Source: Gammaproteobacteria bacterium (lineage in GTDB: Bacteria > Pseudomonadota > Gammaproteobacteria > Ga0077536). From it: DNA of 64,000 bases. This document shows, piece by piece, positions 1 to 10,920 of this stretch. The stretch is from the NCBI GenBank assembly GCA_021773835.1, contig JAJFJQ010000062.1, positions 207,322 to 271,321 of the forward strand, in the 5' to 3' direction. Under the pieces are notes generated by a model. That model saw only the letters and a list, made by a program, of their open reading frames with translations. It had not been told where the DNA came from and made no database searches. The position numbers and the translations under genes were made by a program. The first letter of the stretch is position 1; every line of letters begins with the position of its first letter.

Positions 1-3000
1 CTGACACGTTTACGACAAGCGCAGCTGATGCTGGCGGTATCACCGGCGGGATCACGCTCAGCTATACGAGTTTCGAGACCCTCGGCGGCGGCGGCGGCGA
101 CGATATATTCGATATCGATCATAGCGTGACCTCAGCGAGCGGTGACGCCGGCGCGGATACTTTTAATCTCGACACGGCGCTGGTCAGTATTAGTGGCGGT
201 CTATTTGGAGGCGACAACGGCGATACCTTTAATATCCGCGCGAACGTCGCAACCGACATCGACGGCGGGCTCGGCGATGACATCGTCAACGTCGACCCGG
301 GCGGTACGGGCGGTATCGTGTTGACGGGCGATGTGTCCGGCGGCGACAACGATGACACGATTAATATCGGTATGCCGACCATGACACCACCTGCCGCGCT
401 CCCATCTTCGTCGAGGATCGTCGGTCAGGTCGATGGTGGTGCGGGCGACGATACGCTCGACTACACCGGTTCAAGCCATGCGATGGTAGTCACCGTAACC
501 GGCCCCGGGACAAGCGGTAACAATCTGGAGTTTACCGGTGCTACGACCGCGGTTGATGCTGCTGGTGACGACGTACTCAACATCGACACCGTCGATGACA
601 ACAGGCTTGGCACGTTAATTGGTCCGAATGAGGACACAACCTGGACTATCACCGGCACGAACAGCGGCATGTTTCAAGGTATCAGTGCCGCGCTGCCGAC
701 GTCGTTCACGAATTTTCAAATTGTCGGTCTCGGTGGGGCCGATACGTTTATTTTCCAAGACCTAGGACAAATCGTCGGACTTGCCGGCGGACCTGGAGTC
801 GTTGGCGGCGGCGTCACAGGTGTCGGCGTCGATTCAATCGTGGTCGCGGCGACCGGCGCATTGGGTCCGGCAAGCGAAGATATTGTTCTGACCGCTTCAG
901 ATGAAGGAACAATCACGACGACCGCTGGTATCACGGAATTTGATCTTATTCAGGCTATCGTCGGTAACGATGGATCCGGGACTGTGTTGGTGCAGTCGGC
1001 GTGGGCCGGTAGTGTCGACGGCGGCACCGGCGGCAGCACAATTGTTTGGACGGCGCTCGGCGATCAGAGCGTTACCCTAAGCGGTGGAGGAACCAGTGGT
1101 GTTGGATTTGCTGGTAGCACAGCCACGATTGCGATGGGCTTCGACAACATTACCGGACTCACAAATCCAGGCACAACCTCCACTGCAAGCCTCACTGGCA
1201 CCAATAGCGCCGCTGCGACCAACACGTGGACGATAATGAGCGACGGTGTGGTGGATATGGGCTCCGTGAGTCTCGACGGCGGCGGGCCGCTGACGTTGAA
1301 CTTCGTGGAGTTCGACAATCTTACCGGCCGCGACGATCCGGACACCTTTACCATCAGTGGTCTACACAGCGGCAATATCAGTGGTGGTAACGTCGGAACG
1401 AATAATTTCGTTTTCACCGGGATCCCAGCGACCAGTTTCATCACTGGCAGCGTTAATGGCGGTAGTGGCGTTGACGTGCTCGACTATTCGGGATTCGGTA
1501 CTGCGATCGCGATCAGCCTGACCGGCGGGACCATTGCGGACGGCTATGACGGCAATGACGGCGCTGCCACGATCAGTTCCGGGTTTAACAACATGGACGA
1601 TATCCGTGGCAATCTGACCATGGCGAATAGTTTTACTGGCATTCCTGGGCAAGATGCTACCTGGACAATTACCGCTACCGATGGGTTCGATTATGATCCG
1701 GCCTCAGCCGCCTTGCCGTTAATCAGCCTAAGCGGTTTTGCGAATTTAACCGGCAGCGCCGCCAATGACACGTTCATCATCACAACCGGTGATGTTGATT
1801 CGATCGACGGTGGCGCTGGAATCGACACATTGAGTCACAATGGCAACGCCGGGCCGATCGCGGTTGCGCTGACTGCGCTTGGTACAAGCAACGGGTTCAT
1901 GGGCATGAGCACTGACATCTCCGGTATGTTCAATAATATAAACCGGCTCGAGGGCAGTGCGAACACAGGTGATTCGTTGACTGGCGTTCCATCCGGTGTT
2001 GCTGCTAGCGCAACGTGGACGTTGGACGGCACCACTTATACGGCGGGCGGTCGAACCTTGACGTTTATTGGTGTCGACGATAGCCCATTTCTGGGTGACC
2101 CTCCTGGTGTTTATGAGGCCATAGAGAATCTCATTGGCAACGACGGCGCGGATACGTTTAATGTAACTGCTGATCGAACCGGCGATATCACCGGCGGTGC
2201 TGGTAACGACGTCGTCAACTTAGCTGCCTTACTCACCGGCAGCGTAATGCTCGGCGCCGGCAACGACACGTTGAACTTTATCGGTACCGGTATGATTGTT
2301 GGTGCGGGCAACATCGCCGATGGTGGTACGGAAATCGCAAGCCCGCCTGGCGATACCATAGATTGGTCCCTATCGAGTGTCGATCCAGTTGCACTGAGTC
2401 TGGTGGATATTACCGATCCCACAAGCATTGACGGGACCTTGAGCCTCGTTGATGGTGGCGCCGCCGGGGGGCTTGCCGAGTTTGAATCATTCTTCACGAA
2501 CAGTACGTCGACCTTGCTCGGCCCGGATACGGCGATAACCTATACCATCACCGGCCCCAATACGTTTTTCATCGATATTGGCGCGATGCCAACCTTCAGT
2601 GGATTCAGCAGCATCACTGGCGGGACCTTGAACGACACGTTTAGTTTTATGCCCGGCGGGTCATTGTCTGGGGATATTGATGGCGGCGGTGGGGTGAATA
2701 GCATCGTCACCGCGGTACTCGCCGCAGCGCCAACCGGTAATTTCTTTTTGACCACGGGCGCTAATTCTGGACGGCTCGGTACGATAGACGTTTTTCCTGT
2801 TGGTACCCCAGTTTTCGGGACTTTAGGCGGCACCTGGACGAACATCACCAACCTAACCGGAGGGACCGGAATCGACGTTTTCACGATTACCGGCGGAACT
2901 GCGTTTGCCGGTTTGATGGACGGTGGCGGCGGGATAGACGCTATCCGTGCTGATAACCTCACGAATACTTGGAATCTGCTTGGTGTCGGTAGCGGTAACA

Positions 3001-5435
3001 TCGGCGGCGTTGGGAGTAATAATTTTGTCAATATGTTGCGCGGAATCGGCGGAACAGGCGCAGATACCTTCGTATTTAATGACGGGGCATCGCTAGATTC
3101 GCTCGATGGTTTAGGTGGTACCGATACGCTCGACTACTCCGCAGTATCGACCCCCATTACAGTAAATCTGGCTACAAATAATGCGTCGTTGCTGACTTTT
3201 GCCGGTGGTAATGCAATCAATATTGAAGCGGTTGTGGGTACAGGGGGCGGGGGTGACACACTCATTGGTGAAAACAATAACAATAGCTGGATTGCCACGG
3301 CCCCTGGAATCGGAACAGTCGACGGCTTTGCCTATTCCGCAATTGAAAATATCTCCGGTGGAACGGCCATCGACAGCTTCCTGATTGGCGCCGCGGGTCG
3401 GGTAACGGGCAACCTCAATGGCGGCGGCGGCATCGATACGATCACCCAGAGCTTCGCCAGTAATTGGGTGATCACCTCTCCAAACGCGGGTACGACCGAC
3501 GGCGTTTTAGGTACGTTCGCGGGGGTCGAAAATTTGACCGCGACCGGTTCGACCGCAAACCTCGATATGGACGGTGGATCTATCTCCGGTCGTTACACCG
3601 CGACAACAGTCACCTTGAACGTCGACGGCACCAGCGTAACCGGGGGCACGCCGGTTGATGTCGCGGGTAATCTTGCCGCGAGCGCCAACCAGACCATTAC
3701 CACCGGCGGCGGTGCATTCGCTGTAAGCGGTACGCTGACGGGTACCGGCGCCGGGTTCAACGTCAATACAGGCGGCGGTACCGTAACCGTTAATGGTGCG
3801 ACCAACGCGAACAGCCTTATCGTAAATTCAGGCGGTTCGAATTTTGGCGCCGTTACCACAACCGGTGTGCAGACTTACGGCGGCTCGACGACGTTCAGAG
3901 GCGATCTCACTGGCAGTAACCTAACTTTCAATGGGACCTCGACGTTTAATGGCAACCACCTCCTACAGTCGAGCACCAACGTCTGGGATTTTAATGGAGA
4001 GGTATTGGGAACCGGCAACCTCGATATCATCCCCACCGCCAACACCGATATTTTTATTGGGAACGGTAATGGCCCGGGTAACATCGCGTCGAGTCGATTC
4101 GGCGGATTCCAAGGACATTTGATTGTCGGCGCCCAATTGGATCCCTTAGATTCACCGGCGGAAGAAGCCGTGGTAGTCATGCCGCCTGGGGTGACCGCGG
4201 ATCTCATTACCGTTGAGGAAAATTTTCTCGTAGGCGGTGACGTTACCTTGATCGGAAGCAACATCATGCTCGATTCGGGTATATCCGGCGGGGCCGGAAC
4301 TGGCCAGGTTACTCTAATTGCAGTTGGCGACTCGCAGGGTACCGGCGGCGAAGGTCCTGGCGATATCATCGGGCCGACTGGCGGTACTGCGATTATTGGC
4401 GGCAACAAGGCCGTACTAGTTGCAAATAATGGGATAGTGAATGCAGGGAATATTCGGTTGGACCTAGATGCTGGTGAGCTATTCCTCGCGGTATCCGCTT
4501 CGCAAGACGAGCCAACGTTCGACGCAAGCAGTAGCGCGACGTCGGTAAGTTTCGACCCGACGACAATTGCGATCATTGCGAGTCTCGGTTTGAATCTCCA
4601 ATCGGTACAGGTGGTCTTCAGCAACCCGGCCTCGGCCTTGACCGGTTTGCAGAATGTGCAGTTCATCGACGTCGGCCTGTTCGAGGAAGAACTGAGTCTG
4701 TTTGGCGTTATCGGTAATGGCATCGCGTTATCGCTCGATCAGTGCGAGGAAGCCGAAGGTTGCGCACCAAACGTGAGCGAAGAAGAAATCGATGCATTGA
4801 TCGCCCAAATCGAGGGAAGGATCTCAGAAATAGAACGTCGCCTCGCTTCCGGTGAGATCGACTCAGCGGAAGGGCAGCGCCTGCTGGCTGGTTTCCAACA
4901 GGAGCTACAAAATTATCAAACCTACAAAGAGCAGTTAGCGGCGTTCAACGAATCGCAACTTGAGTTTGGTGACGATTTCGGTGAACTGGATGATTTCGCC
5001 GAGGAGTTTGACGATGCCGAACCGATTGATGATGTATCTCCGACGGATACGACCGATATCGAAGCACCGCAAATAGCTGCGCCGGCACCGGAGCCGGAAG
5101 CGGAGCCGATGGAGGAGGCATTCGAAGAGCTGGAAGACGAATTTATTGAACAAGAGATCCCGGTCGATGAGTTCGAGGACCTCGAGGAAGACCTTGAAGA
5201 AGACTTTCCTGAGTTGGACGACGTCCTGGAAGAGGCGCCCGATGAGTTTGAAGACTTGGATGAGGAATTTGACGAATTTGAAGAACTCGGGAAGGAAATC
5301 GATCCTGCCTTACTTTTGCGGTTGACGCAGAATGCCAACGTAAACGAATACCGTGGGGCGCTCGGGATTGGCATGGATGGCCGGGTAGTATGGACCGGTG
5401 ACATCATATTGCCCTCGTATGCACGGCAATATTGA
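1..5435 (+). CDS. Giant secreted repeat protein, 5'-partial. It has RTX-like Ca-binding GGxGxD/DGGxGxDTLDY motifs, Gly/Thr/Asn-rich beta-helix-like repeats, a C-terminal coiled coil and a poly-acidic tail.
   Basis: The reading frame is open from nt 3 with no stop upstream of the tracked GTG at 126, so the N-terminus lies outside the window. It ends at TGA 5433-5435. The translation has dozens of DGG(A/S/G)G(x)DTLDY(S/T)G and GGAGND motifs, plus long stretches such as TGTGAGFNVNTGGGTVTVNGATNANSL. The last ~330 aa are heptad-like (EIDALIAQIEGRISEIERRL...) followed by ~170 aa that are about half Asp/Glu. Confidence 0.8.
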   Translation, partial: DTFTTSAADAGGITGGITLSYTSFETLGGGGGDDIFDIDHSVTSASGDAGADTFNLDTALVSISGGLFGGDNGDTFNIRANVATDIDGGLGDDIVNVDPGGTGGIVLTGDVSGGDNDDTINIGMPTMTPPAALPSSSRIVGQVDGGAGDDTLDYTGSSHAMVVTVTGPGTSGNNLEFTGATTAVDAAGDDVLNIDTVDDNRLGTLIGPNEDTTWTITGTNSGMFQGISAALPTSFTNFQIVGLGGADTFIFQDLGQIVGLAGGPGVVGGGVTGVGVDSIVVAATGALGPASEDIVLTASDEGTITTTAGITEFDLIQAIVGNDGSGTVLVQSAWAGSVDGGTGGSTIVWTALGDQSVTLSGGGTSGVGFAGSTATIAMGFDNITGLTNPGTTSTASLTGTNSAAATNTWTIMSDGVVDMGSVSLDGGGPLTLNFVEFDNLTGRDDPDTFTISGLHSGNISGGNVGTNNFVFTGIPATSFITGSVNGGSGVDVLDYSGFGTAIAISLTGGTIADGYDGNDGAATISSGFNNMDDIRGNLTMANSFTGIPGQDATWTITATDGFDYDPASAALPLISLSGFANLTGSAANDTFIITTGDVDSIDGGAGIDTLSHNGNAGPIAVALTALGTSNGFMGMSTDISGMFNNINRLEGSANTGDSLTGVPSGVAASATWTLDGTTYTAGGRTLTFIGVDDSPFLGDPPGVYEAIENLIGNDGADTFNVTADRTGDITGGAGNDVVNLAALLTGSVMLGAGNDTLNFIGTGMIVGAGNIADGGTEIASPPGDTIDWSLSSVDPVALSLVDITDPTSIDGTLSLVDGGAAGGLAEFESFFTNSTSTLLGPDTAITYTITGPNTFFIDIGAMPTFSGFSSITGGTLNDTFSFMPGGSLSGDIDGGGGVNSIVTAVLAAAPTGNFFLTTGANSGRLGTIDVFPVGTPVFGTLGGTWTNITNLTGGTGIDVFTITGGTAFAGLMDGGGGIDAIRADNLTNTWNLLGVGSGNIGGVGSNNFVNMLRGIGGTGADTFVFNDGASLDSLDGLGGTDTLDYSAVSTPITVNLATNNASLLTFAGGNAINIEAVVGTGGGGDTLIGENNNNSWIATAPGIGTVDGFAYSAIENISGGTAIDSFLIGAAGRVTGNLNGGGGIDTITQSFASNWVITSPNAGTTDGVLGTFAGVENLTATGSTANLDMDGGSISGRYTATTVTLNVDGTSVTGGTPVDVAGNLAASANQTITTGGGAFAVSGTLTGTGAGFNVNTGGGTVTVNGATNANSLIVNSGGSNFGAVTTTGVQTYGGSTTFRGDLTGSNLTFNGTSTFNGNHLLQSSTNVWDFNGEVLGTGNLDIIPTANTDIFIGNGNGPGNIASSRFGGFQGHLIVGAQLDPLDSPAEEAVVVMPPGVTADLITVEENFLVGGDVTLIGSNIMLDSGISGGAGTGQVTLIAVGDSQGTGGEGPGDIIGPTGGTAIIGGNKAVLVANNGIVNAGNIRLDLDAGELFLAVSASQDEPTFDASSSATSVSFDPTTIAIIASLGLNLQSVQVVFSNPASALTGLQNVQFIDVGLFEEELSLFGVIGNGIALSLDQCEEAEGCAPNVSEEEIDALIAQIEGRISEIERRLASGEIDSAEGQRLLAGFQQELQNYQTYKEQLAAFNESQLEFGDDFGELDDFAEEFDDAEPIDDVSPTDTTDIEAPQIAAPAPEPEAEPMEEAFEELEDEFIEQEIPVDEFEDLEEDLEEDFPELDDVLEEAPDEFEDLDEEFDEFEELGKEIDPALLLRLTQNANVNEYRGALGIGMDGRVVWTGDIILPSYARQY

Positions 5436-5436
5436 G

Positions 5437-6213
5437 ATGGAAAACTCGACACCTACAAGCCAGCAACCTTTATTTTATCGCGACGTGGTGCCGCTAAGTC
5501 GTGAGCGCCACGCCGATTGGTTTGTCGACATGGCGCAAGGCTATGGGTTTACCGCGGACACGAACTCGATATATGTCGCGGGAACCGAATTTCCGATGAC
5601 CTCGCGGGAATATCCGATAGTCTTCGCGATGGATGCTGCAAAAAATTTGGTCCCGGTAGCGCTGCTGGGCCTGCGACAAAACCAAAACCTCATGATTGCC
5701 GAAGATGGCAGTTGGCTCGGCGGTTATGTCCCGGCCTACATACGGCGTTACCCATTTATCTTGGCTAACGCGGATGAGCAAGCTAATAAATTCGCGGTGT
5801 GCATCGATGAGTCTTATTCTGGTTTCAATACCGCCGGTGAAGGCGATCGACTCATTAACGAGGACGGCCAACATGGCGAGATCCTATCGAATTCGGTAAA
5901 GTTTCTAGAGGAGTTCCACAAGCATAGCGAAGTCACGACGCAGTTTTGCCAGGCTATCGCCGAAGCGGGCTTAGTCGAATCGATGCAGGCCAATTTTTCA
6001 ATGAAATCCGGCAGTAGTTTTTCACTGGCTGGTCTCCATTGTGTACCTCGCAATAAGATCAAGGCATTGTCTGCAGAGCAGCTTAAACTGTTCGTCGACC
6101 GCGATTACCTAGATCTTCTTTATCTGCACATCTATTCGTTATCGAATATGGACAAACTTATCGCACGATACGACGAAGTTGATAAAGCATCGACCGCGGC
6201 AGGTGAACGTTAG
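5437..6213 (+). CDS. SapC-family protein (domain associated with S-layer/type I secretion loci)
   Basis: An in-frame ATG at 5437 lies 1 nt after the upstream stop (the tracked ORF begins earlier at 5398 and would overlap). The motif YVPAYIRRYPFIL and the ~255 aa length fit the SapC domain family as I recall it. No search was run. Confidence 0.55.
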   Translation: MENSTPTSQQPLFYRDVVPLSRERHADWFVDMAQGYGFTADTNSIYVAGTEFPMTSREYPIVFAMDAAKNLVPVALLGLRQNQNLMIAEDGSWLGGYVPAYIRRYPFILANADEQANKFAVCIDESYSGFNTAGEGDRLINEDGQHGEILSNSVKFLEEFHKHSEVTTQFCQAIAEAGLVESMQANFSMKSGSSFSLAGLHCVPRNKIKALSAEQLKLFVDRDYLDLLYLHIYSLSNMDKLIARYDEVDKASTAAGER

Positions 6214-6508
6214 AGAATAATGTGCCCGTGAATAAGCTTAATTTAGTGTCCACTATTCCGACGATCCGACGTATCGAACCATCAATAACGCCCGGCTCTC
6301 GCGTGCACCCGCTGCCGGCGCCGGAACGCGGGCGTGGCTCGGGTGAGACCTACCATTTCGACATCCCGCGCGTAGATGCTGATACCAGCAGTCAGCTACG
6401 CAGGGTCAGCTCGACGGTCTTATTGGACTCAATGATTCGGCAGATGGGCGGTGCGACGATCCCAAGCGCAAAGGGTTCCTACGTCGATATCGTGGTCTAA
6501 TCAAGCCG

Positions 6509-7036
6509 CTATTGAGTTCGCGCGGTTGCCTTCGGCGTCTCGCCGAATTTTTCGATCAACTCCAACGATAGCGCTTGAGCTGCCTTATATTCCGACGGCG
6601 ATAACAGCCCGGCTGCGCGTTTCATTGCGTCAGCGGCCCCTACGTTTCCAAGGTGTGCAGCGACGCTGTACCAAGCGTATGCACGCTCCATGTCATGCGG
6701 TACACCGCGCCCGTTTTGGTAGAGATCTCCTAGCCGGAATTGCGCATCGGCCACGCCGCGTTCAGACGCTTTACGATACCATTGGGCGGCTATTTCGCTA
6801 TCTTTATCGATCCCTTGCCCTGCCGCATACATGCGTCCAATGAAGTATTGCGCGTAGGCGTGGTCGGCAGTCTCGGCCAGCGGTATGAAAATTGATAAGG
6901 CCTTTTCGTAGTCACCAGACATGAACGCAACAACGCCGTCGTTAAAATCAGCCAGCGAATTTTGACTTAATAGCAAAATAAAAAGGATTGCGCTCAGGCG
7001 GATTTTCACTTGGACCTTTCTCCACTGCGTCTTCAT
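6509..7036 (-). CDS. Sel1-repeat (TPR-like) secreted protein
   Basis: An internal Met (MKTQWRKVQVKIRLSAILFILLLSQNSLA) gives a signal-peptide-like N-terminus. Repeated AAQWYRKASERG / AQFRLGDLYQNGRGVPHD Sel1 motifs follow. The tracked ORF extends further upstream, but the 7036 start is preferred. Confidence 0.7.
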   Translation of the reverse strand: MKTQWRKVQVKIRLSAILFILLLSQNSLADFNDGVVAFMSGDYEKALSIFIPLAETADHAYAQYFIGRMYAAGQGIDKDSEIAAQWYRKASERGVADAQFRLGDLYQNGRGVPHDMERAYAWYSVAAHLGNVGAADAMKRAAGLLSPSEYKAAQALSLELIEKFGETPKATARTQ

Positions 7037-7172
7037 AGGCACGCATAATAAACGGATCATCGGCGCCTTATAAGGTGAATTTAGTGGTAAGATTCGGCCC
7101 CCGAGCAGAGCCGGAATCCAGCGTTGGCGCGAGCCTCTCGAAACCGCGCTCATAGAATATCGATGGTGAGAC

Positions 7173-8573
7173 ATGCAGCCCAAAACACTTTACGACAAAT
7201 TGTGGGACGCGCATCTCGTCGAAAAGTTCGACGATGGTACGGCACTCATATATATCGACCGTCATATCATCCACGAGGTGACCACCCCGCAGGCCTTTGA
7301 GGGATTGCGTCTGGCTGGGCGTAAGCCATGGCGCGTCGGCGCGACTAAGGCCGTCTCGGACCACAATACCCCGACCGTTGACGTCCACAACATTACCGAT
7401 CCGATTGCCAAATTACAGCTCGACACCTTGTCGAAGAATTGCACCGAGCACGGCATAACGCACTACGACATTGGCGACGTACGACGCGGAATTGTTCACG
7501 TAACTGGACCCGAGCAGGGATGGTGTCTTCCCGGCATGAGCATCGTATGCGGGGATTCGCATACGGCAACCAATGGCGCGCTCGGTGCTTTGGCTTTCGG
7601 GATCGGGACATCAGAAGTCGAACATTGCATCGCCACCCAGTGTCTTGTGTTGCGCAAGGCGAAAAATATGCTCATTGAAGTCAACGGTGAAATGCCGATT
7701 GGTGTGTCGGCCAAAGATCTGATCCTCGCGATCATTGGAAAAATAGGCACCGCCGGCGCGACCGGTCATACGATCGAATACGCCGGTGAGGCCATCAATT
7801 CGTTGACCATCGAAGAGCGAATGACCGTTTGTAATATGTCGATAGAGGCGGGCGGACGCGCTGGTCTTGTTGCCGTCGATGACGCGACATTGGATTACAT
7901 TAAAGGACGACCGTTCAGTCCTAGTGGTGAACTTTGGGATCAAGCAGTATCAGCCTGGCGCGACCTAAAGTCTGATCCGGATGCGAAGTTCGATAGCGCC
8001 GTCAATATCGATGCGGAGGCGATCGAGCCGCAAGTCACCTGGGGGACGTCGCCCGAAATGGTTGTCCCGGTTTCCGGCAGCGTTCCCGATCCCGACACTG
8101 CAACGGACGAATCTCAACGCATCGGCATGAACAACGCGCTTCGTTACATGGATCTTAAGCCGGGGACGCGCATCGAAGACATCGAAATTGATAAAGTGTT
8201 TATCGGGTCGTGTACAAATTCCCGGATCGAGGATCTACGCGCTGCGGCGAGCGTGGTAAAAGGTCGTCGCAAGGCTGCAAATGTAAAATTGGCTTTGGTT
8301 GTACCTGGCTCTGGCTTGGTAAAAGAGCAAGCGGAGAGTGAAGGATTGGACAAGGTGTTTCTGGATGCCGGCTTTGAATGGCGCGAACCGGGATGTTCGA
8401 TGTGCCTGGGCATGAATCCCGATCAGTTATCAGAGGGCGAGCGCTGCGCGTCGACCTCGAATCGAAATTTCGAAGGGCGACAAGGACGGGGCGGACGGAC
8501 ACATCTCGTTAGCCCGGCGATGGCTGCCGCTGCCGGGATCAGCGGACATTTCGTCGACGTACGGGGGATTTGA
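7173..8573 (+). CDS. leuC: 3-isopropylmalate dehydratase large subunit
   Basis: 466 aa with an aconitase-family signature and LeuC-like N-terminus [16 protein letters not shown]. It is followed 4 nt later by leuD. Confidence 0.93.
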
Positions 8574-8577
8574 GCCG

Positions 8578-9219
8578 ATGGAACCAGTGACGAAAGTTCA
8601 TGGCATTGTGTTACCTATCGATCGTCCAAATGTTGACACCGATGCGATCATTCCCAAGCAATTTTTGAAGTCGATCAAGCGGACGGGATTCGGCGTTAAC
8701 TTGTTTGATGAATGGCGCTACTTAGATAAGGGTGAGGCCGATCAAGATTGCGCCGAGCGACCGGTAAATAAGGATTTTGTTCTCAACCAACCGCGCTATC
8801 GCGGCGCAGAGATCTTACTGGCTCGTGTCAATTTCGGTTGTGGTTCGTCGCGAGAACATGCCCCGTGGGCGCTGCATGACTATGGCATCCGCGCCATGAT
8901 CGCGCCGAGTTTCGCCGATATCTTCTACAGTAACGCGTGTAAGAACGGCCTGGTGCCCGTAACTTTGCCGGAAGACGTTGTCGATAAACTGTTCGACGCG
9001 TGTAGCGCCGTGGAAGGTTATAGCTTAACAGTTGACCTTGAAGCCCAACTTGTAACAACACCCGCTGGCGAAAGTTTTACTTTTGAGTTCAATCCAGGGC
9101 TGCGTCAACGGTTATTGAGTGGCCTCGATGACATCGGCGTCTCCTTGAAATCCGCCGACGCTATCCGCGCATACGAAGCGCGTCGGGCGGTCGAAGTGCC
9201 ATGGCTATTTCAAGACTGA
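8578..9219 (+). CDS. leuD: 3-isopropylmalate dehydratase small subunit
   Basis: 213 aa; the aconitase C-terminal swivel domain sits immediately after leuC. Confidence 0.93.
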
Positions 9220-9267
9220 GGCCTACCAACTAGGCTGTGATGGGGCATGGAGCGCCGAATTCGGTGC

Positions 9268-10920
9268 TTACAGGCTACCCAACTCATCGGCCTCAATTCG
9301 CAGTTTGAACTTTTGGATCTTACCGGTCGAGGTTTTCGGCAACTCTCGGAAAAGGACCGTCTTTGGTGCTTTGAAATGGGCAATATTCTCTCGGCAATAC
9401 GAGATGAGTTCTTCAGCGCTGACATCTGGTGCGGACGGTTTCAGATTTACGAACGCGCACGGCGTCTCACCCCATTTGTCATCCGGCCGCGCAACCACAG
9501 CAGCTTCAAGGACGTGCGGATGTTTGTAGAGCACCTCTTCGACCTCAATAGATGAAATATTCTCACCGCCGGAAATAATGATGTCTTTTGAGCGATCCTT
9601 GAGTTGAATGTAGTTTTCGGGGTGCATGACTCCTAGATCACCGGAGTGAAACCAGCCGTCGGCTAGAGATTCTTGGGTTGCCTTCGGGTTTTTTAAGTAT
9701 CCGCGCATCACAACATTGCCTTTGAACATGATTTCGCCGATCGTTTCCCCGTCGCGCGGTACGGGCTCCATCGTTTCTGGATCGATCACGTTAAGGTCTT
9801 CTAAGACGTTGTAACGAACCCCTTGACGGATCCGTTTTTCCGCCAGATCGGCTGGTGATAAAGAATCCCAGCTACTTTGGTGCGCAGTAAAAACTGCCGG
9901 ACCGTAGACCTCGGTAAGACCATAGGCGTGTGTCACCTTAAAGCCTTGGTCGGCCATCGACCGCAATATCGCCGCGGGTGGCGCTGCACCAGCGGTCATT
10001 ACATTGATCGATCCTTTGATCTCGCGACGATCTTCGTCGCTAGCATTCACAATGAAGTTCAACACGATTGGCGCACCGCAGAAATGGGTCACCCCATGGG
10101 TATCTATTGCGTCGTAAATATCGGCTGCGGCGATCCGGCGTAGACAAACGTTGGTACCGCCTTGCAGCGCTATCGACCATGGATAGCACCAGCCACAGCA
10201 GTGGAACATCGGTAGTGTCCATAGGTAAACCGGGTTTTGTCCCATCGTCCATGCGAGTACGTTACCGATTGAATTGAGATAGGCGCCGCGATGATGCGTC
10301 ACAACGCCTTTGGGATTCCCGGTAGTACCCGAGGTGTAGCAAAGTGATATCGCCTGCCATTCGTCCTCGGGTAGTTTCCATGGAAAGTCTGGGTCACCGG
10401 TCGCGATAAAATCTTCGTATTCAAGCTCCCCGAGGCGATCGTGGCAAAGCGCCGCCTCGTCGGCGATATCGATAACGATGGGTTCCACAGTGCATTTCGA
10501 AAGTGCTTCTTTGACCACGGGCGCAAATTCCGTATCCGTGATCAAGACCTTGGCTTCGCCGTGGTCGAGGATAAAGGCGATGGCGTCAGCGTCGAGCCTT
10601 ATATTGATTGGATTGATAACTGCGCCGCACGCTGCTACACCAAATAACGACTCGTAGAAGGCAGGAATATTCGTTGCTAATACGGCAACAGTATCGTTGA
10701 GGCCGATGCCGCGTTTGTCTAGTGCGCAGGCGAGCTGGCGGCACCGGGCAAAGGTCTCTGTCCAGGTAAATTGGCGCTCTCCATGAACGACAGCGAGTTG
10801 ATCTGGATAAACCGACGCCGCGCGCTGAATAAAACTCAACGGTGACAGGGGCGTGTAATTGGCGGTGACTTTGTCGAGGTCTTGCTCGTAGGGGCTTATG
10901 CTCGATGTAGATTTGTTCAT
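9268..10920 (-). CDS. AMP-dependent acyl-CoA synthetase/ligase
   Basis: 550 aa with the AMP-binding motif YTSGTTGNPKGV and a C-terminal GEIxxxG...K region. Confidence 0.9.
   Translation of the reverse strand: MNKSTSSISPYEQDLDKVTANYTPLSPLSFIQRAASVYPDQLAVVHGERQFTWTETFARCRQLACALDKRGIGLNDTVAVLATNIPAFYESLFGVAACGAVINPINIRLDADAIAFILDHGEAKVLITDTEFAPVVKEALSKCTVEPIVIDIADEAALCHDRLGELEYEDFIATGDPDFPWKLPEDEWQAISLCYTSGTTGNPKGVVTHHRGAYLNSIGNVLAWTMGQNPVYLWTLPMFHCCGWCYPWSIALQGGTNVCLRRIAAADIYDAIDTHGVTHFCGAPIVLNFIVNASDEDRREIKGSINVMTAGAAPPAAILRSMADQGFKVTHAYGLTEVYGPAVFTAHQSSWDSLSPADLAEKRIRQGVRYNVLEDLNVIDPETMEPVPRDGETIGEIMFKGNVVMRGYLKNPKATQESLADGWFHSGDLGVMHPENYIQLKDRSKDIIISGGENISSIEVEEVLYKHPHVLEAAVVARPDDKWGETPCAFVNLKPSAPDVSAEELISYCRENIAHFKAPKTVLFRELPKTSTGKIQKFKLRIEADELGSL

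What the first reader, a model, noticed from the sequence alone, without database searches (positions are those of the whole stretch)
5437..7036. SapC-family gene translationally adjacent to the giant repeat protein, with a convergent Sel1-repeat secreted protein
The SapC-like start is 1 nt after the giant gene's stop, so the two are almost certainly co-transcribed. SapC is named from the Campylobacter S-layer/type-I secretion operon, where its function is still unknown. A fixed partnership with a >1770-aa RTX-like substrate would point to an accessory role in secretion, folding or surface anchoring. The convergent Sel1-repeat protein is a plausible periplasmic adaptor.
Basis: partly seen in the sequence, partly recalled or inferred. 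Interest (0 to 1): 0.55.

Follow-up and report, generated by a model that had tools for sequence, protein, structure and literature searches.

The report
SapC gene in two-partner secretion operon
The SapC-family gene sits at the tail of an operon that exports a giant surface protein through the two-partner (type Vb) pathway, not through type I secretion. The same pairing recurs in several bacterial phyla, which gives this function-unknown protein family a testable role as a helper of giant-protein export.

Summary
The giant ORF stops at 5433-5435. A full-length SapC gene (PF07277, E=2.6e-65) starts at 5437. A Sel1-repeat gene with a signal peptide converges at 6509-7036.

The giant is not an RTX or type I substrate: it has no HemolysinCabind match, and there are no T1SS genes nearby. 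Full-length relatives carry an N-terminal TPS domain. A close relative (L097, SapC 85% identical) shows the whole locus: parvulin, tpsB (POTRA_2+ShlB), tpsA (4320 aa), sapC, small ORF, convergent Sel1, leuCD.

SapC also lies inside TPS operons in Desulfobulbus, Smithella, Desulfuromonadales, Geobacterales, Chlorobiaceae (next to a Skp-like gene) and Nitrospirota, in two gene orders. In a one-genome-per-species sample, 23 of 80 SapC loci have an adjacent giant gene or TPS genes.

SapC has no signal peptide and is as conserved as LeuC, while the giant diverges quickly. A confident AF2 model (pLDDT 92.7) has no relative in the PDB. The best reading is a cytoplasmic accessory factor acting on the TpsA before export; its biochemical activity is unknown. 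Sel1 linkage is confined to one gammaproteobacterial clade. I found no paper linking SapC to TPS.

The parts
1..5435 (+). 3' part (at least 1810 codons) of a giant tpsA-type exoprotein gene. The N-terminus, where the TPS domain is expected, and the tpsB gene lie upstream of the window.
   Evidence: The ORF is open to the left edge. The window fragment has no Pfam or NCBIfam hit. A full-library search gave 1949 relatives. Five full-length relatives tested (P0139, P0140, P0142, P0202, P0225; 3994-7005 aa) have an N-terminal TPS domain, PF05860, E~1e-34. The product is 46-60% identical to the 4320-aa TpsA of L097, which is preceded by tpsB. Composition: Gly 16.6%, Thr 11.6%, Asp 8.5%, Lys 0.2%.
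4653..4922 (+). Conserved C-terminal module of the giant: GLFEEELSLFGVIGNGIALSLDQCEEAEGCAPNV followed by a coiled-coil-like stretch. It holds the only two Cys residues of the visible protein.
   Evidence: The module is conserved in every clade giant. In some relatives it also occurs as a separate ~190-aa protein with a signal peptide, encoded between the giant and SapC. Cys is present only at residues 1581 and 1587.
4953..5432 (+). Highly acidic, Pro-containing linker (up to 56% D+E per 50 aa), followed by the conserved extreme C-terminal tail ...GRVVWTGDIILPSYARQY.
   Evidence: The tail motif is conserved in P0137, P0139, P0140, P0143, P0202, L001, L004-L007, L013 and L017.
5437..6213 (+). 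SapC-family protein, 258 aa, no signal peptide. Predicted to be a soluble cytoplasmic accessory factor of the TPS operon.
6222..6500 (+). Small conserved ORF (92 codons, GTG start 8 nt after the SapC stop). The N-terminal part is variable. The C-terminal motif is conserved: LLxSMIxQMGGxxxxSAKGxYVDIxV.
   Evidence: The ORF is called at the same position in relatives, at 84-110 aa. The motif is conserved in L001, L004, L007, L013-L017, L026 and L097. A low-GC variant (NLLNEIVNKMSG...PGHxVEYYA) occurs in L019-L025. No match in Pfam, NCBIfam or the PDB.
6509..7036 (-). Sel1-repeat protein (175 aa) with an N-terminal signal peptide, convergent with the operon. Its membership of the system is tentative.
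   Evidence: PF08238, E=6.8e-21. Signal-peptide-like N-terminus. Convergent 0.5-1.1 kb downstream of SapC in 19 of the 20 distinct clade loci that have it, and 2.6 kb downstream in L019. No hit in SapC loci outside the clade.
6531..6547 (+). Terminator-like hairpin followed by a T-run, 31 nt after the small ORF's stop and inside the 3' end of the Sel1 coding region. It may mark the end of the + strand operon.
   Evidence: The evidence is weak: the number of such sites found in the region equals the number expected from shuffled sequence.

Best explanation
The window holds the 3' end of a two-partner secretion (type Vb) operon: (parvulin-type chaperone gene) - tpsB - giant tpsA - sapC - small ORF.

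The giant protein is a TpsA exoprotein. By analogy with characterised TPS systems, it would cross the inner membrane through Sec and be threaded through a ShlB/FhaC-type TpsB barrel. Its Cys-pair, coiled-coil, acidic-linker and conserved-tail C-terminus may play a part like the periplasm-retained prodomain of FhaB; that last point is inference only.

SapC is a soluble protein without a signal peptide, translationally coupled to tpsA. I propose it is a dedicated cytoplasmic accessory factor that acts on the newly made, still unfolded TpsA before Sec export. It would either modify the TpsA covalently or hold and deliver it. I lean towards a catalytic or ligand-binding role. SapC is as conserved as LeuC, and it keeps a set of invariant polar and aromatic residues (E51, N84, W93, Y97, R103, R104, Y105, H231, within the YxPAYxRRYPF and CIDExxxGFN motifs). 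That pattern is unusual for passive secretion chaperones.

Shown here: SapC family membership, the TPS nature of the operon, and the recurrent SapC-TPS linkage. Inferred: cytoplasmic location, action on TpsA, and the type of activity.
For: 1. SapC identity: PF07277, full length, E=2.6e-65.
2. The giant is a TpsA. Five full-length relatives tested have a TPS domain at E~1e-34.
3. L097 (SapC 85% identical) reads rotamase, tpsB (POTRA_2+ShlB), tpsA 4320 aa, SapC, a 108-aa ORF, Sel1, leuCD.
4. SapC is embedded in TPS operons in other lineages:
- Desulfobulbus: tpsB-tpsA-sapC.
- Smithella: tpsB-sapC-tpsA.
- Chlorobiaceae: tpsB-skp/OmpH-sapC-tpsA.
- Desulfuromonadales: tpsB-sapC.
- Oryzomonas: tpsB-sapC-giant.
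- Nitrospirota: tpsB-sapC-tpsA with ESPR+TPS.
- My own TPS and ShlB HMMs confirm these and add L046, L052 and L071.
5. In a one-genome-per-species sample, 18 of 80 SapC loci have a same-strand giant ORF within 1.5 kb, and 23 of 80 have a giant or TPS/ShlB genes.
6. Giant-to-SapC gaps of -4 to +13 nt are conserved.
7. No signal peptide in 116 SapC sequences.
8. SapC is 85% identical between the window and L097. LeuC is 85%, and the giant is 46-60%.
9. Invariant residues across two clades that are 31-37% identical to each other.
10. In non-TPS contexts SapC sits beside protein-modifying enzyme genes: GT41 glycosyltransferase and Trp-halogenase.

Against: Most distant SapC genes (about 57 of 80) are not next to any secretion gene. 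They sit among housekeeping genes (FAD oxidase, UDP-glucose dehydrogenase, ribosomal genes). The family's activity therefore need not be specific to TPS.

The TPS-embedded SapCs outside the gamma clade belong to one SapC subclade. The cross-phylum pattern could reflect horizontal spread of one module rather than many independent associations.

The N-terminus of the window's own giant and its tpsB are outside the window. They are inferred from relatives.
Confidence: 0.55

Rival explanations
1. SapC is an accessory of a type I secretion system that exports a giant RTX-like substrate, as suggested by the Campylobacter fetus sapCDEF operon.
For: The family name comes from the C. fetus S-layer/T1SS locus (my own knowledge; the locus is mentioned in 10.1101/2024.07.26.605372). 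One distant SapC locus (L034, Sulfuritalea) has a downstream giant with DUF4347 and RTX repeats. The window's giant contains scattered GGxGxD motifs.
Against: The window's giant has no HemolysinCabind match. Full-length relatives have TPS domains. tpsB lies directly upstream in L097. No ABC, MFP or TolC genes were found among the ORFs scanned in the window or called in relatives' loci.
Confidence: 0.04
2. SapC is a CdiI-like immunity or antidote protein against a toxic C-terminal domain of the TpsA. Its position is the same as cdiI in cdiBAI loci.
For: The gene order tpsB-tpsA-sapC and the minimal gap mirror cdiB-cdiA-cdiI (TPS review PMC5422565).
Against: SapC is 85% conserved while the giant is 46-60%, whereas immunity genes co-diversify with their toxins. 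The giant's C-terminus is an acidic linker plus a conserved tail with no toxin or pre-toxin Pfam domain. In five other lineages sapC lies upstream of tpsA, between tpsB and tpsA. Many SapC genes are solitary.
Confidence: 0.04
3. SapC is a passive, substrate-specific cytoplasmic holdase or targeting chaperone (like SecB or a T3SS chaperone). It keeps giant Gly/Asp-rich beta-helix proteins unfolded for Sec (TPS) or ABC (T1SS) export, with no catalysis.
For: The link to giant exoproteins is the same as for the main explanation. SapC occurs with both TPS and (by name and in L034) T1SS-type giants, which share only size and repeat character. In Chlorobiaceae it is encoded beside a Skp-like holdase gene, and in L097 the operon begins with a parvulin chaperone gene.
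Against: The very high sequence conservation and the many invariant charged and aromatic residues are atypical for holdases. SapC also occurs with TonB-receptor, halogenase and GT41 genes and alone among housekeeping genes.
Confidence: 0.22
4. There is no functional link. SapC is a neighbour by lineage synteny, and its function is unrelated to the giant protein, for example a metabolic or regulatory role.
For: Within the gamma clade the whole block giant-SapC-small-Sel1-leuCD is syntenic. Most distant SapC loci have no secretion genes.
Against: Linkage persists where the flanks differ (L010). It recurs inside TPS operons in six other lineages, in two different gene orders. The 1-nt gap implies co-expression.
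Confidence: 0.1

Closest known systems
Two-partner secretion (type Vb) systems with a third, cytoplasmic accessory gene: HMW1A/B/C and EtpBAC (GT41 N-glycosyltransferase HMW1C/EtpC), and CdiC (lysine acyltransferase)
   Same: The operon encodes a TpsB barrel, a giant TpsA and a co-transcribed small cytoplasmic protein with no signal peptide. In these known systems that protein acts on TpsA before export (review PMC5422565).
   Different: SapC has no GT41 or acyltransferase match and no fold relative in the PDB, so its activity is unknown. The review's list of TPS accessory proteins does not include SapC.
Bordetella FhaB/FhaC with its C-terminal prodomain and the periplasmic parvulin chaperone Par27
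   Same: A giant beta-helical TpsA with a distinct, conserved extreme C-terminus preceded by a Pro-containing, low-complexity linker. A parvulin-type PPIase gene heads the operon in the close relative L097.
   Different: There is no sequence similarity to FhaB's prodomain. The prodomain-like role of the window's C-terminal module is inference only. Par27's role is recalled from my own knowledge and was not checked here. FhaB loci have no SapC.
Campylobacter fetus sapCDEF (S-layer type I secretion locus), the source of the family name
   Same: A SapC-family gene is encoded next to the export machinery for large surface proteins, and its function is unknown there too.
   Different: That machinery is a T1SS (ABC, MFP, TolC-like). 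Here it is TPS/type Vb. C. fetus SapC itself was not retrieved or compared here; this row rests on my own knowledge.
TonB-dependent receptor / tryptophan-halogenase / SapC gene clusters of marine and plant-associated proteobacteria
   Same: The same Pfam family. Seen here in L030 (GT41 - SapC - Trp halogenase) and L059 (two SapC genes flanking a TonB-dependent receptor).
   Different: Those clusters have no giant exoprotein, and their function is also unknown.
CDI systems (cdiBAI)
   Same: The gene order: transporter, giant TpsA, then a small cytoplasmic protein.
   Different: There is no polymorphic toxin tip. SapC is highly conserved rather than polymorphic, and it precedes tpsA in other lineages.

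Membership tests
SapC family (Pfam PF07277) | HMM match above the gathering score over the whole domain | tested here: met
   220.5 bits against a cut-off of 28.9, E=2.6e-65, model positions 1-220 of 220. All homologues found carry PF07277.
Sel1-repeat proteins (PF08238) | Sel1 repeat HMM matches above the gathering score | tested here: met
   74.4 bits against 30.7, two repeats scored. NCBIfam gave only generic partial hits (MerG, MotX, AlgK, ExoR), all far below their cut-offs.
Two-partner secretion system (type Vb) | TpsA substrate with an N-terminal TPS secretion domain (PF05860) | tested here: inconclusive
   The N-terminus of the window's giant lies outside the window. The feature is met in five full-length relatives (P0139, P0140, P0142, P0202, P0225; E~1e-34). 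P0139 is 46-60% identical to the window's fragment over its whole length.
Two-partner secretion system (type Vb) | Cognate Omp85-type TpsB transporter (POTRA_2 + ShlB) encoded with the substrate | tested here: inconclusive
   No TpsB among the 18 ORFs scanned by Pfam downstream in the window. One is present directly upstream of the orthologous giant in L097 and in L027, L033, L036, L040, L058, L094 and L095.
Two-partner secretion system (type Vb) | Beta-helical passenger | not tested
   The structure of the giant was not predicted. Its composition and repeats are compatible with a beta-helix.
RTX / type I secretion substrate | Tandem RTX nonapeptide repeats (PF00353 HemolysinCabind) | tested here: not met
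   No Pfam hit at E<=0.01 for the 1810-aa fragment. The 11 GGxGxD motifs are dispersed.
RTX / type I secretion substrate | Linked ABC transporter, membrane-fusion protein and TolC-like genes | tested here: not met
   None among the window ORFs scanned or the called genes of relatives' loci.
CDI toxin/immunity (CdiA-CT/CdiI) | Polymorphic C-terminal toxin after a VENN-type pre-toxin motif, with a co-varying immunity gene | tested here: not met
   No pre-toxin or toxin Pfam domain. The C-terminus is conserved across relatives. SapC is 85% conserved.
HMW1C-type TPS accessory glycosyltransferase (GT41) | GT41 catalytic domain | tested here: not met
   SapC matches only PF07277 and has no fold match to any PDB glycosyltransferase. 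The resemblance is in operon role only.

The most novel reading that the evidence does not exclude
SapC proteins are a previously unrecognised class of cytoplasmic maturation factor, with a fold absent from the PDB. They would be needed to make giant repeat exoproteins export-competent, for example through a new post-translational modification. They would serve type Vb systems in at least seven bacterial lineages and possibly type I systems as well, which would settle what SapC does in the Campylobacter S-layer locus. The conserved small ORF and the periplasmic Sel1 protein could be further components of this module.
Probability: 0.3. Interest if true: 0.75.

Novelty: new variant of a known kind. 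Interest (0 to 1): 0.55.

Why it matters
Two-partner secretion is usually presented as a minimal two-protein pathway. Only a handful of accessory genes are known (HMW1C, CdiC, CdiI, BcpO). A widespread, highly conserved third gene embedded in TPS operons of environmental Gammaproteobacteria, Desulfobacterota, Chlorobiota and Nitrospirota would add a new component. It may explain how cells handle exoproteins of 3000-7000 residues before export.

It also gives the first concrete, testable context for Pfam family PF07277. To my knowledge the family's function has been unknown since it was named in the C. fetus sap locus, and its predicted fold has no solved relative.

In the library searched, no paper combines SapC with two-partner secretion, and in the ranked results of a broader search no paper containing TpsA, TpsB, ShlB or FhaC mentions SapC.

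Tried and rejected

2. A homology search with the giant's C-terminal region returned only short fragments, because the candidate list was saturated by low-complexity words. The full-library representative search solved this.

3. An exact-match metagenome scan meant to extend locus L002 upstream found nothing. A direct look-up of P0139 gave the complete locus instead.

4. The C-terminal module of the giant and the small ORF have no PDB sequence relatives and no Pfam or NCBIfam match.

5. The promoter and terminator scan of 5200-7400 found no promoter-like sites. It found only a hairpin at 6531-6547, which is no more than shuffled sequence would give.

6. A crude ORF caller mis-handled high-GC loci. 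A GC3-aware version and stop-to-stop ORFs were used for the counts. L032, counted among the 18 adjacent giants, is a 70% GC locus and may be spurious.

7. I expected Trp-halogenase or TonB-receptor genes to dominate distant SapC neighbourhoods. Only single examples were seen. FAD-oxidase and UDP-glucose dehydrogenase neighbours were more common.
Full report
**Observation**

The giant ORF is open from the left edge of the window and ends with TGA at 5433-5435. An ATG at 5437 opens a 258-codon ORF that ends at 6213. A 175-codon ORF runs on the opposite strand from 7036 to 6509.

The 5437-6213 product matches Pfam SapC (PF07277) over the entire model (220.5 bits, E=2.6e-65). The convergent product matches Sel1 repeats (E=6.8e-21). 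The Sel1 protein has a typical signal-peptide N-terminus, and SapC has none.

It starts 8 nt after the SapC stop, and it turns out to be conserved.

**What the giant protein is**

The visible 1810 residues have no Pfam or NCBIfam match, and in particular no RTX (HemolysinCabind) match. The protein is rich in Gly, Thr, Ala and Asp and almost free of Lys. It contains 11 dispersed GGxGxD motifs, mostly tens to hundreds of residues apart within longer repeat units, and only two cysteines.

It ends in a conserved module: GLFEEELSLFGxIGxGIALSLDQCExxEGCAPNV, then a coiled-coil-like stretch, then a very acidic Pro-containing linker, then the tail GRVVWTGDIxLPSxxRxY.

A full-library HMMER search with residues 450-1640 found 1949 relatives. 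Five full-length relatives of 3994-7005 residues were scanned. All have an N-terminal TPS secretion domain (PF05860, E~1e-34). P0139, P0140 and P0202 have the same C-terminal tail.

Looking up P0139 gave the complete locus of a close relative, L097:
- a membrane-anchored parvulin-type rotamase;
- tpsB (POTRA_2 + ShlB, 604 aa);
- tpsA (4320 aa);
- SapC (255 aa);
- a 108-aa ORF;
- convergent Sel1;
- leuC and leuD.

The right-hand part of this order is exactly what the window shows. The window therefore carries the 3' end of a two-partner (type Vb) secretion operon, not a type I/RTX system. The 18 ORFs scanned by Pfam in the 58 kb downstream are housekeeping genes, with no T1SS or TpsB among them.

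**Is SapC really partnered with giant exoproteins?**

Yes. Within the clade of SapC proteins that are 43-93% identical to the query (uncultured Gammaproteobacteria), the giant is immediately upstream on the same strand in essentially every locus long enough to judge. The gaps are -4 to +13 nt. In some loci a ~190-aa signal-peptide protein lies in between; it is a stand-alone paralogue of the giant's Cys-pair and coiled-coil module. The linkage survives where the downstream flank is completely different (L010).

SapC proteins only 31-42% identical to the query are embedded in bona fide TPS operons in other lineages:
- Desulfobulbus: tpsB-tpsA-sapC;
- Smithella: tpsB-sapC-tpsA;
- Chlorobiaceae: tpsB-skp(OmpH)-sapC-tpsA;
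- Desulfuromonadales: tpsB-sapC;
- Oryzomonas: tpsB-sapC-giant;
- Nitrospirota: tpsB-sapC-tpsA, with ESPR and TPS domains.

These come, and were confirmed with my own TPS and ShlB HMMs.

In the one-genome-per-species sample, 18 of 80 SapC loci have a same-strand giant ORF within 1.5 kb, and 23 of 80 have a giant or TPS/ShlB genes. My rough expectation for a random locus is about 1%; this is an estimate, not a computed value.

Four alpha- and betaproteobacterial loci (L037, L050, L064, L093) also have an upstream giant of more than 3300 aa. It belongs to a different family, and its secretion route could not be determined. One locus (L034) has an RTX-type giant.

The remaining loci show SapC next to unrelated housekeeping genes, or with GT41, Trp-halogenase or TonB-receptor genes. 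The family is therefore not exclusively tied to TPS.

**What SapC might do**

No SapC sequence has a hydrophobic N-terminus, and the AF2 model is a compact globular protein (pLDDT 92.7, pTM 0.87). SapC is therefore most likely cytoplasmic.

Between the window and L097, SapC is 85% identical. That equals LeuC (85%) and LeuD (81%). The giant is 46-60%, Sel1 is 70%, and the small ORF is conserved only over its last 33 residues.

Thirteen residues are invariant across two SapC clades that share only 31-37% identity. They include E51, N84, W93, Y97, R103, R104, Y105 and H231.

This pattern argues against a CdiI-like immunity role. It also fits a passive holdase rather poorly. It fits an enzyme or a specific ligand-binding protein better.

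By analogy with the known cytoplasmic third genes of TPS operons (HMW1C/EtpC glycosyltransferases, the CdiC acyltransferase; PMC5422565), I propose that SapC acts on the unfolded TpsA before Sec export, either modifying it or holding and delivering it. This is inference. The linkage is shown; the activity is not.

**The other genes**

The small ORF (6222-6500) is a real conserved gene of the module. It has a variable N-terminal part and a conserved C-terminal motif of about 28 residues. It matches no known family.

The Sel1 gene is convergent in 20 of 23 distinct loci of the gammaproteobacterial clade. Two of the three exceptions (L009, L021) are contigs that end too soon to judge. In 19 of the 20 loci it lies 0.5-1.1 kb downstream of SapC, and in L019 2.6 kb downstream. 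It tends to stay next to SapC when genes are inserted between it and leuC. It is absent from all SapC loci outside that clade. Its role as a periplasmic partner, for example for the giant's periplasmic C-terminal module, is possible but untested.

Periplasmic chaperone genes appear at the head of, or inside, these operons: a parvulin in L097 and Skp-like genes in Chlorobiaceae. This is consistent with the demands of exporting very large unfolded substrates.

**Comparison with what is known, and novelty**

Each piece belongs to a known family: SapC, Sel1, and TpsA/TpsB by homology. What appears to be new is the recurrent placement of SapC, and here also the small ORF, as a third component of TPS operons.

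In the searched literature, no paper combines SapC with two-partner secretion, and none of the ranked papers that contain TpsA, TpsB, ShlB or FhaC mentions SapC. The main TPS review does not list it among accessory proteins. The two papers that mention SapC alongside type I secretion only note its presence. I therefore rate this a new variant of a known kind.

**Verdict**

The 'RTX/type I' part is rejected in favour of two-partner secretion. The Sel1 adaptor idea remains undecided. Interest is moderate (0.55): this is a solid lead from gene neighbourhoods to the function of an uncharacterised, structurally unprecedented family, but no mechanism has been demonstrated.

Noticed in passing
Its N-terminal part is variable and probably disordered. 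Its C-terminal motif LLxSMIxQMGGxxxxSAKGxYVDIxV is conserved across the clade, with a low-GC variant NLLNEIVNKMSG..PGHxVEYYA. It matches no known family.
   Followed up: partly
L010:9405-10004, L012:9407-9991, L019:2993-3562, L020-L025 (between the giant and SapC): In part of the clade a separate ~190-aa protein with a signal peptide is encoded between tpsA and sapC. It is a stand-alone paralogue of the giant's C-terminal module (xGxGIALSxAQCExxxxCxxxV, coiled coil, acidic tail). In those loci the giant lacks the GRVxWTGDIVLPS tail.
   Followed up: partly
L097:2724-3746 (+); L033:9447-9983, L058:5102-5668 (+): Periplasmic chaperone genes are built into SapC-containing TPS operons. A membrane-anchored parvulin/PpiC-type rotamase lies upstream of tpsB in the close relative. 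A Skp/OmpH-like gene lies between tpsB and sapC in Chlorobiaceae.
   Followed up: partly
L004:~100-6500, L005:1-776, L007-L009:5600-8700: In several relatives the giant tpsA gene is broken or truncated by IS elements (rve, DDE_Tnp_1, IS240 transposases). SapC, the small ORF and Sel1 stay intact. The same SapC protein (P0028) is found next to giants called at 1167, 1864 (runs off the contig start) and 2850 aa in three assemblies.
   Followed up: no
L037, L050, L064, L093 (upstream of SapC, ~1-9900): SapC of Nitrospirillum, Rhodospirillaceae, Thalassospira and Achromobacter follows a different family of giant ORFs of more than 3300 aa. These share a C-terminus (..TNGDITMxGLxGPxTxLTMxSG.. GAPYFINDTPWGP) and have no Pfam match in the last ~1000-1200 residues. 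Their secretion route is unknown.
   Followed up: partly
L030:8225-12361; L059:5356-10669: Other SapC contexts were seen. One is a TPR + GT41 glycosyltransferase (the family of HMW1C), then SapC, then a Trp-halogenase. The other is two SapC paralogues flanking a TonB-dependent receptor.
   Followed up: partly
L027:10940-15538: In Desulfobulbus the tpsB-tpsA-sapC unit is followed by FHA-domain proteins and a type VI secretion TssK/VasE gene.
   Followed up: no
window 6531-6547 (+): A GC-rich hairpin plus T-run lies 31 nt after the small ORF's stop, inside the 3' end of the convergent Sel1 coding region. It may be a terminator for the + strand operon. Such sites are no more frequent in this region than in shuffled sequence.
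   Followed up: partly
window 7173-64000: The rest of the window is ordinary chromosomal housekeeping. It includes leuCD, acyl-CoA ligase, enoyl-CoA hydratase and acyl-CoA dehydrogenase, an EF-G paralogue, asparagine synthase, a SulP transporter, pyruvate carboxylase, hydantoinase A/B, aldehyde dehydrogenase, a molybdopterin oxidoreductase, and three tRNAs (Val, Ala, Glu).
   Followed up: partly
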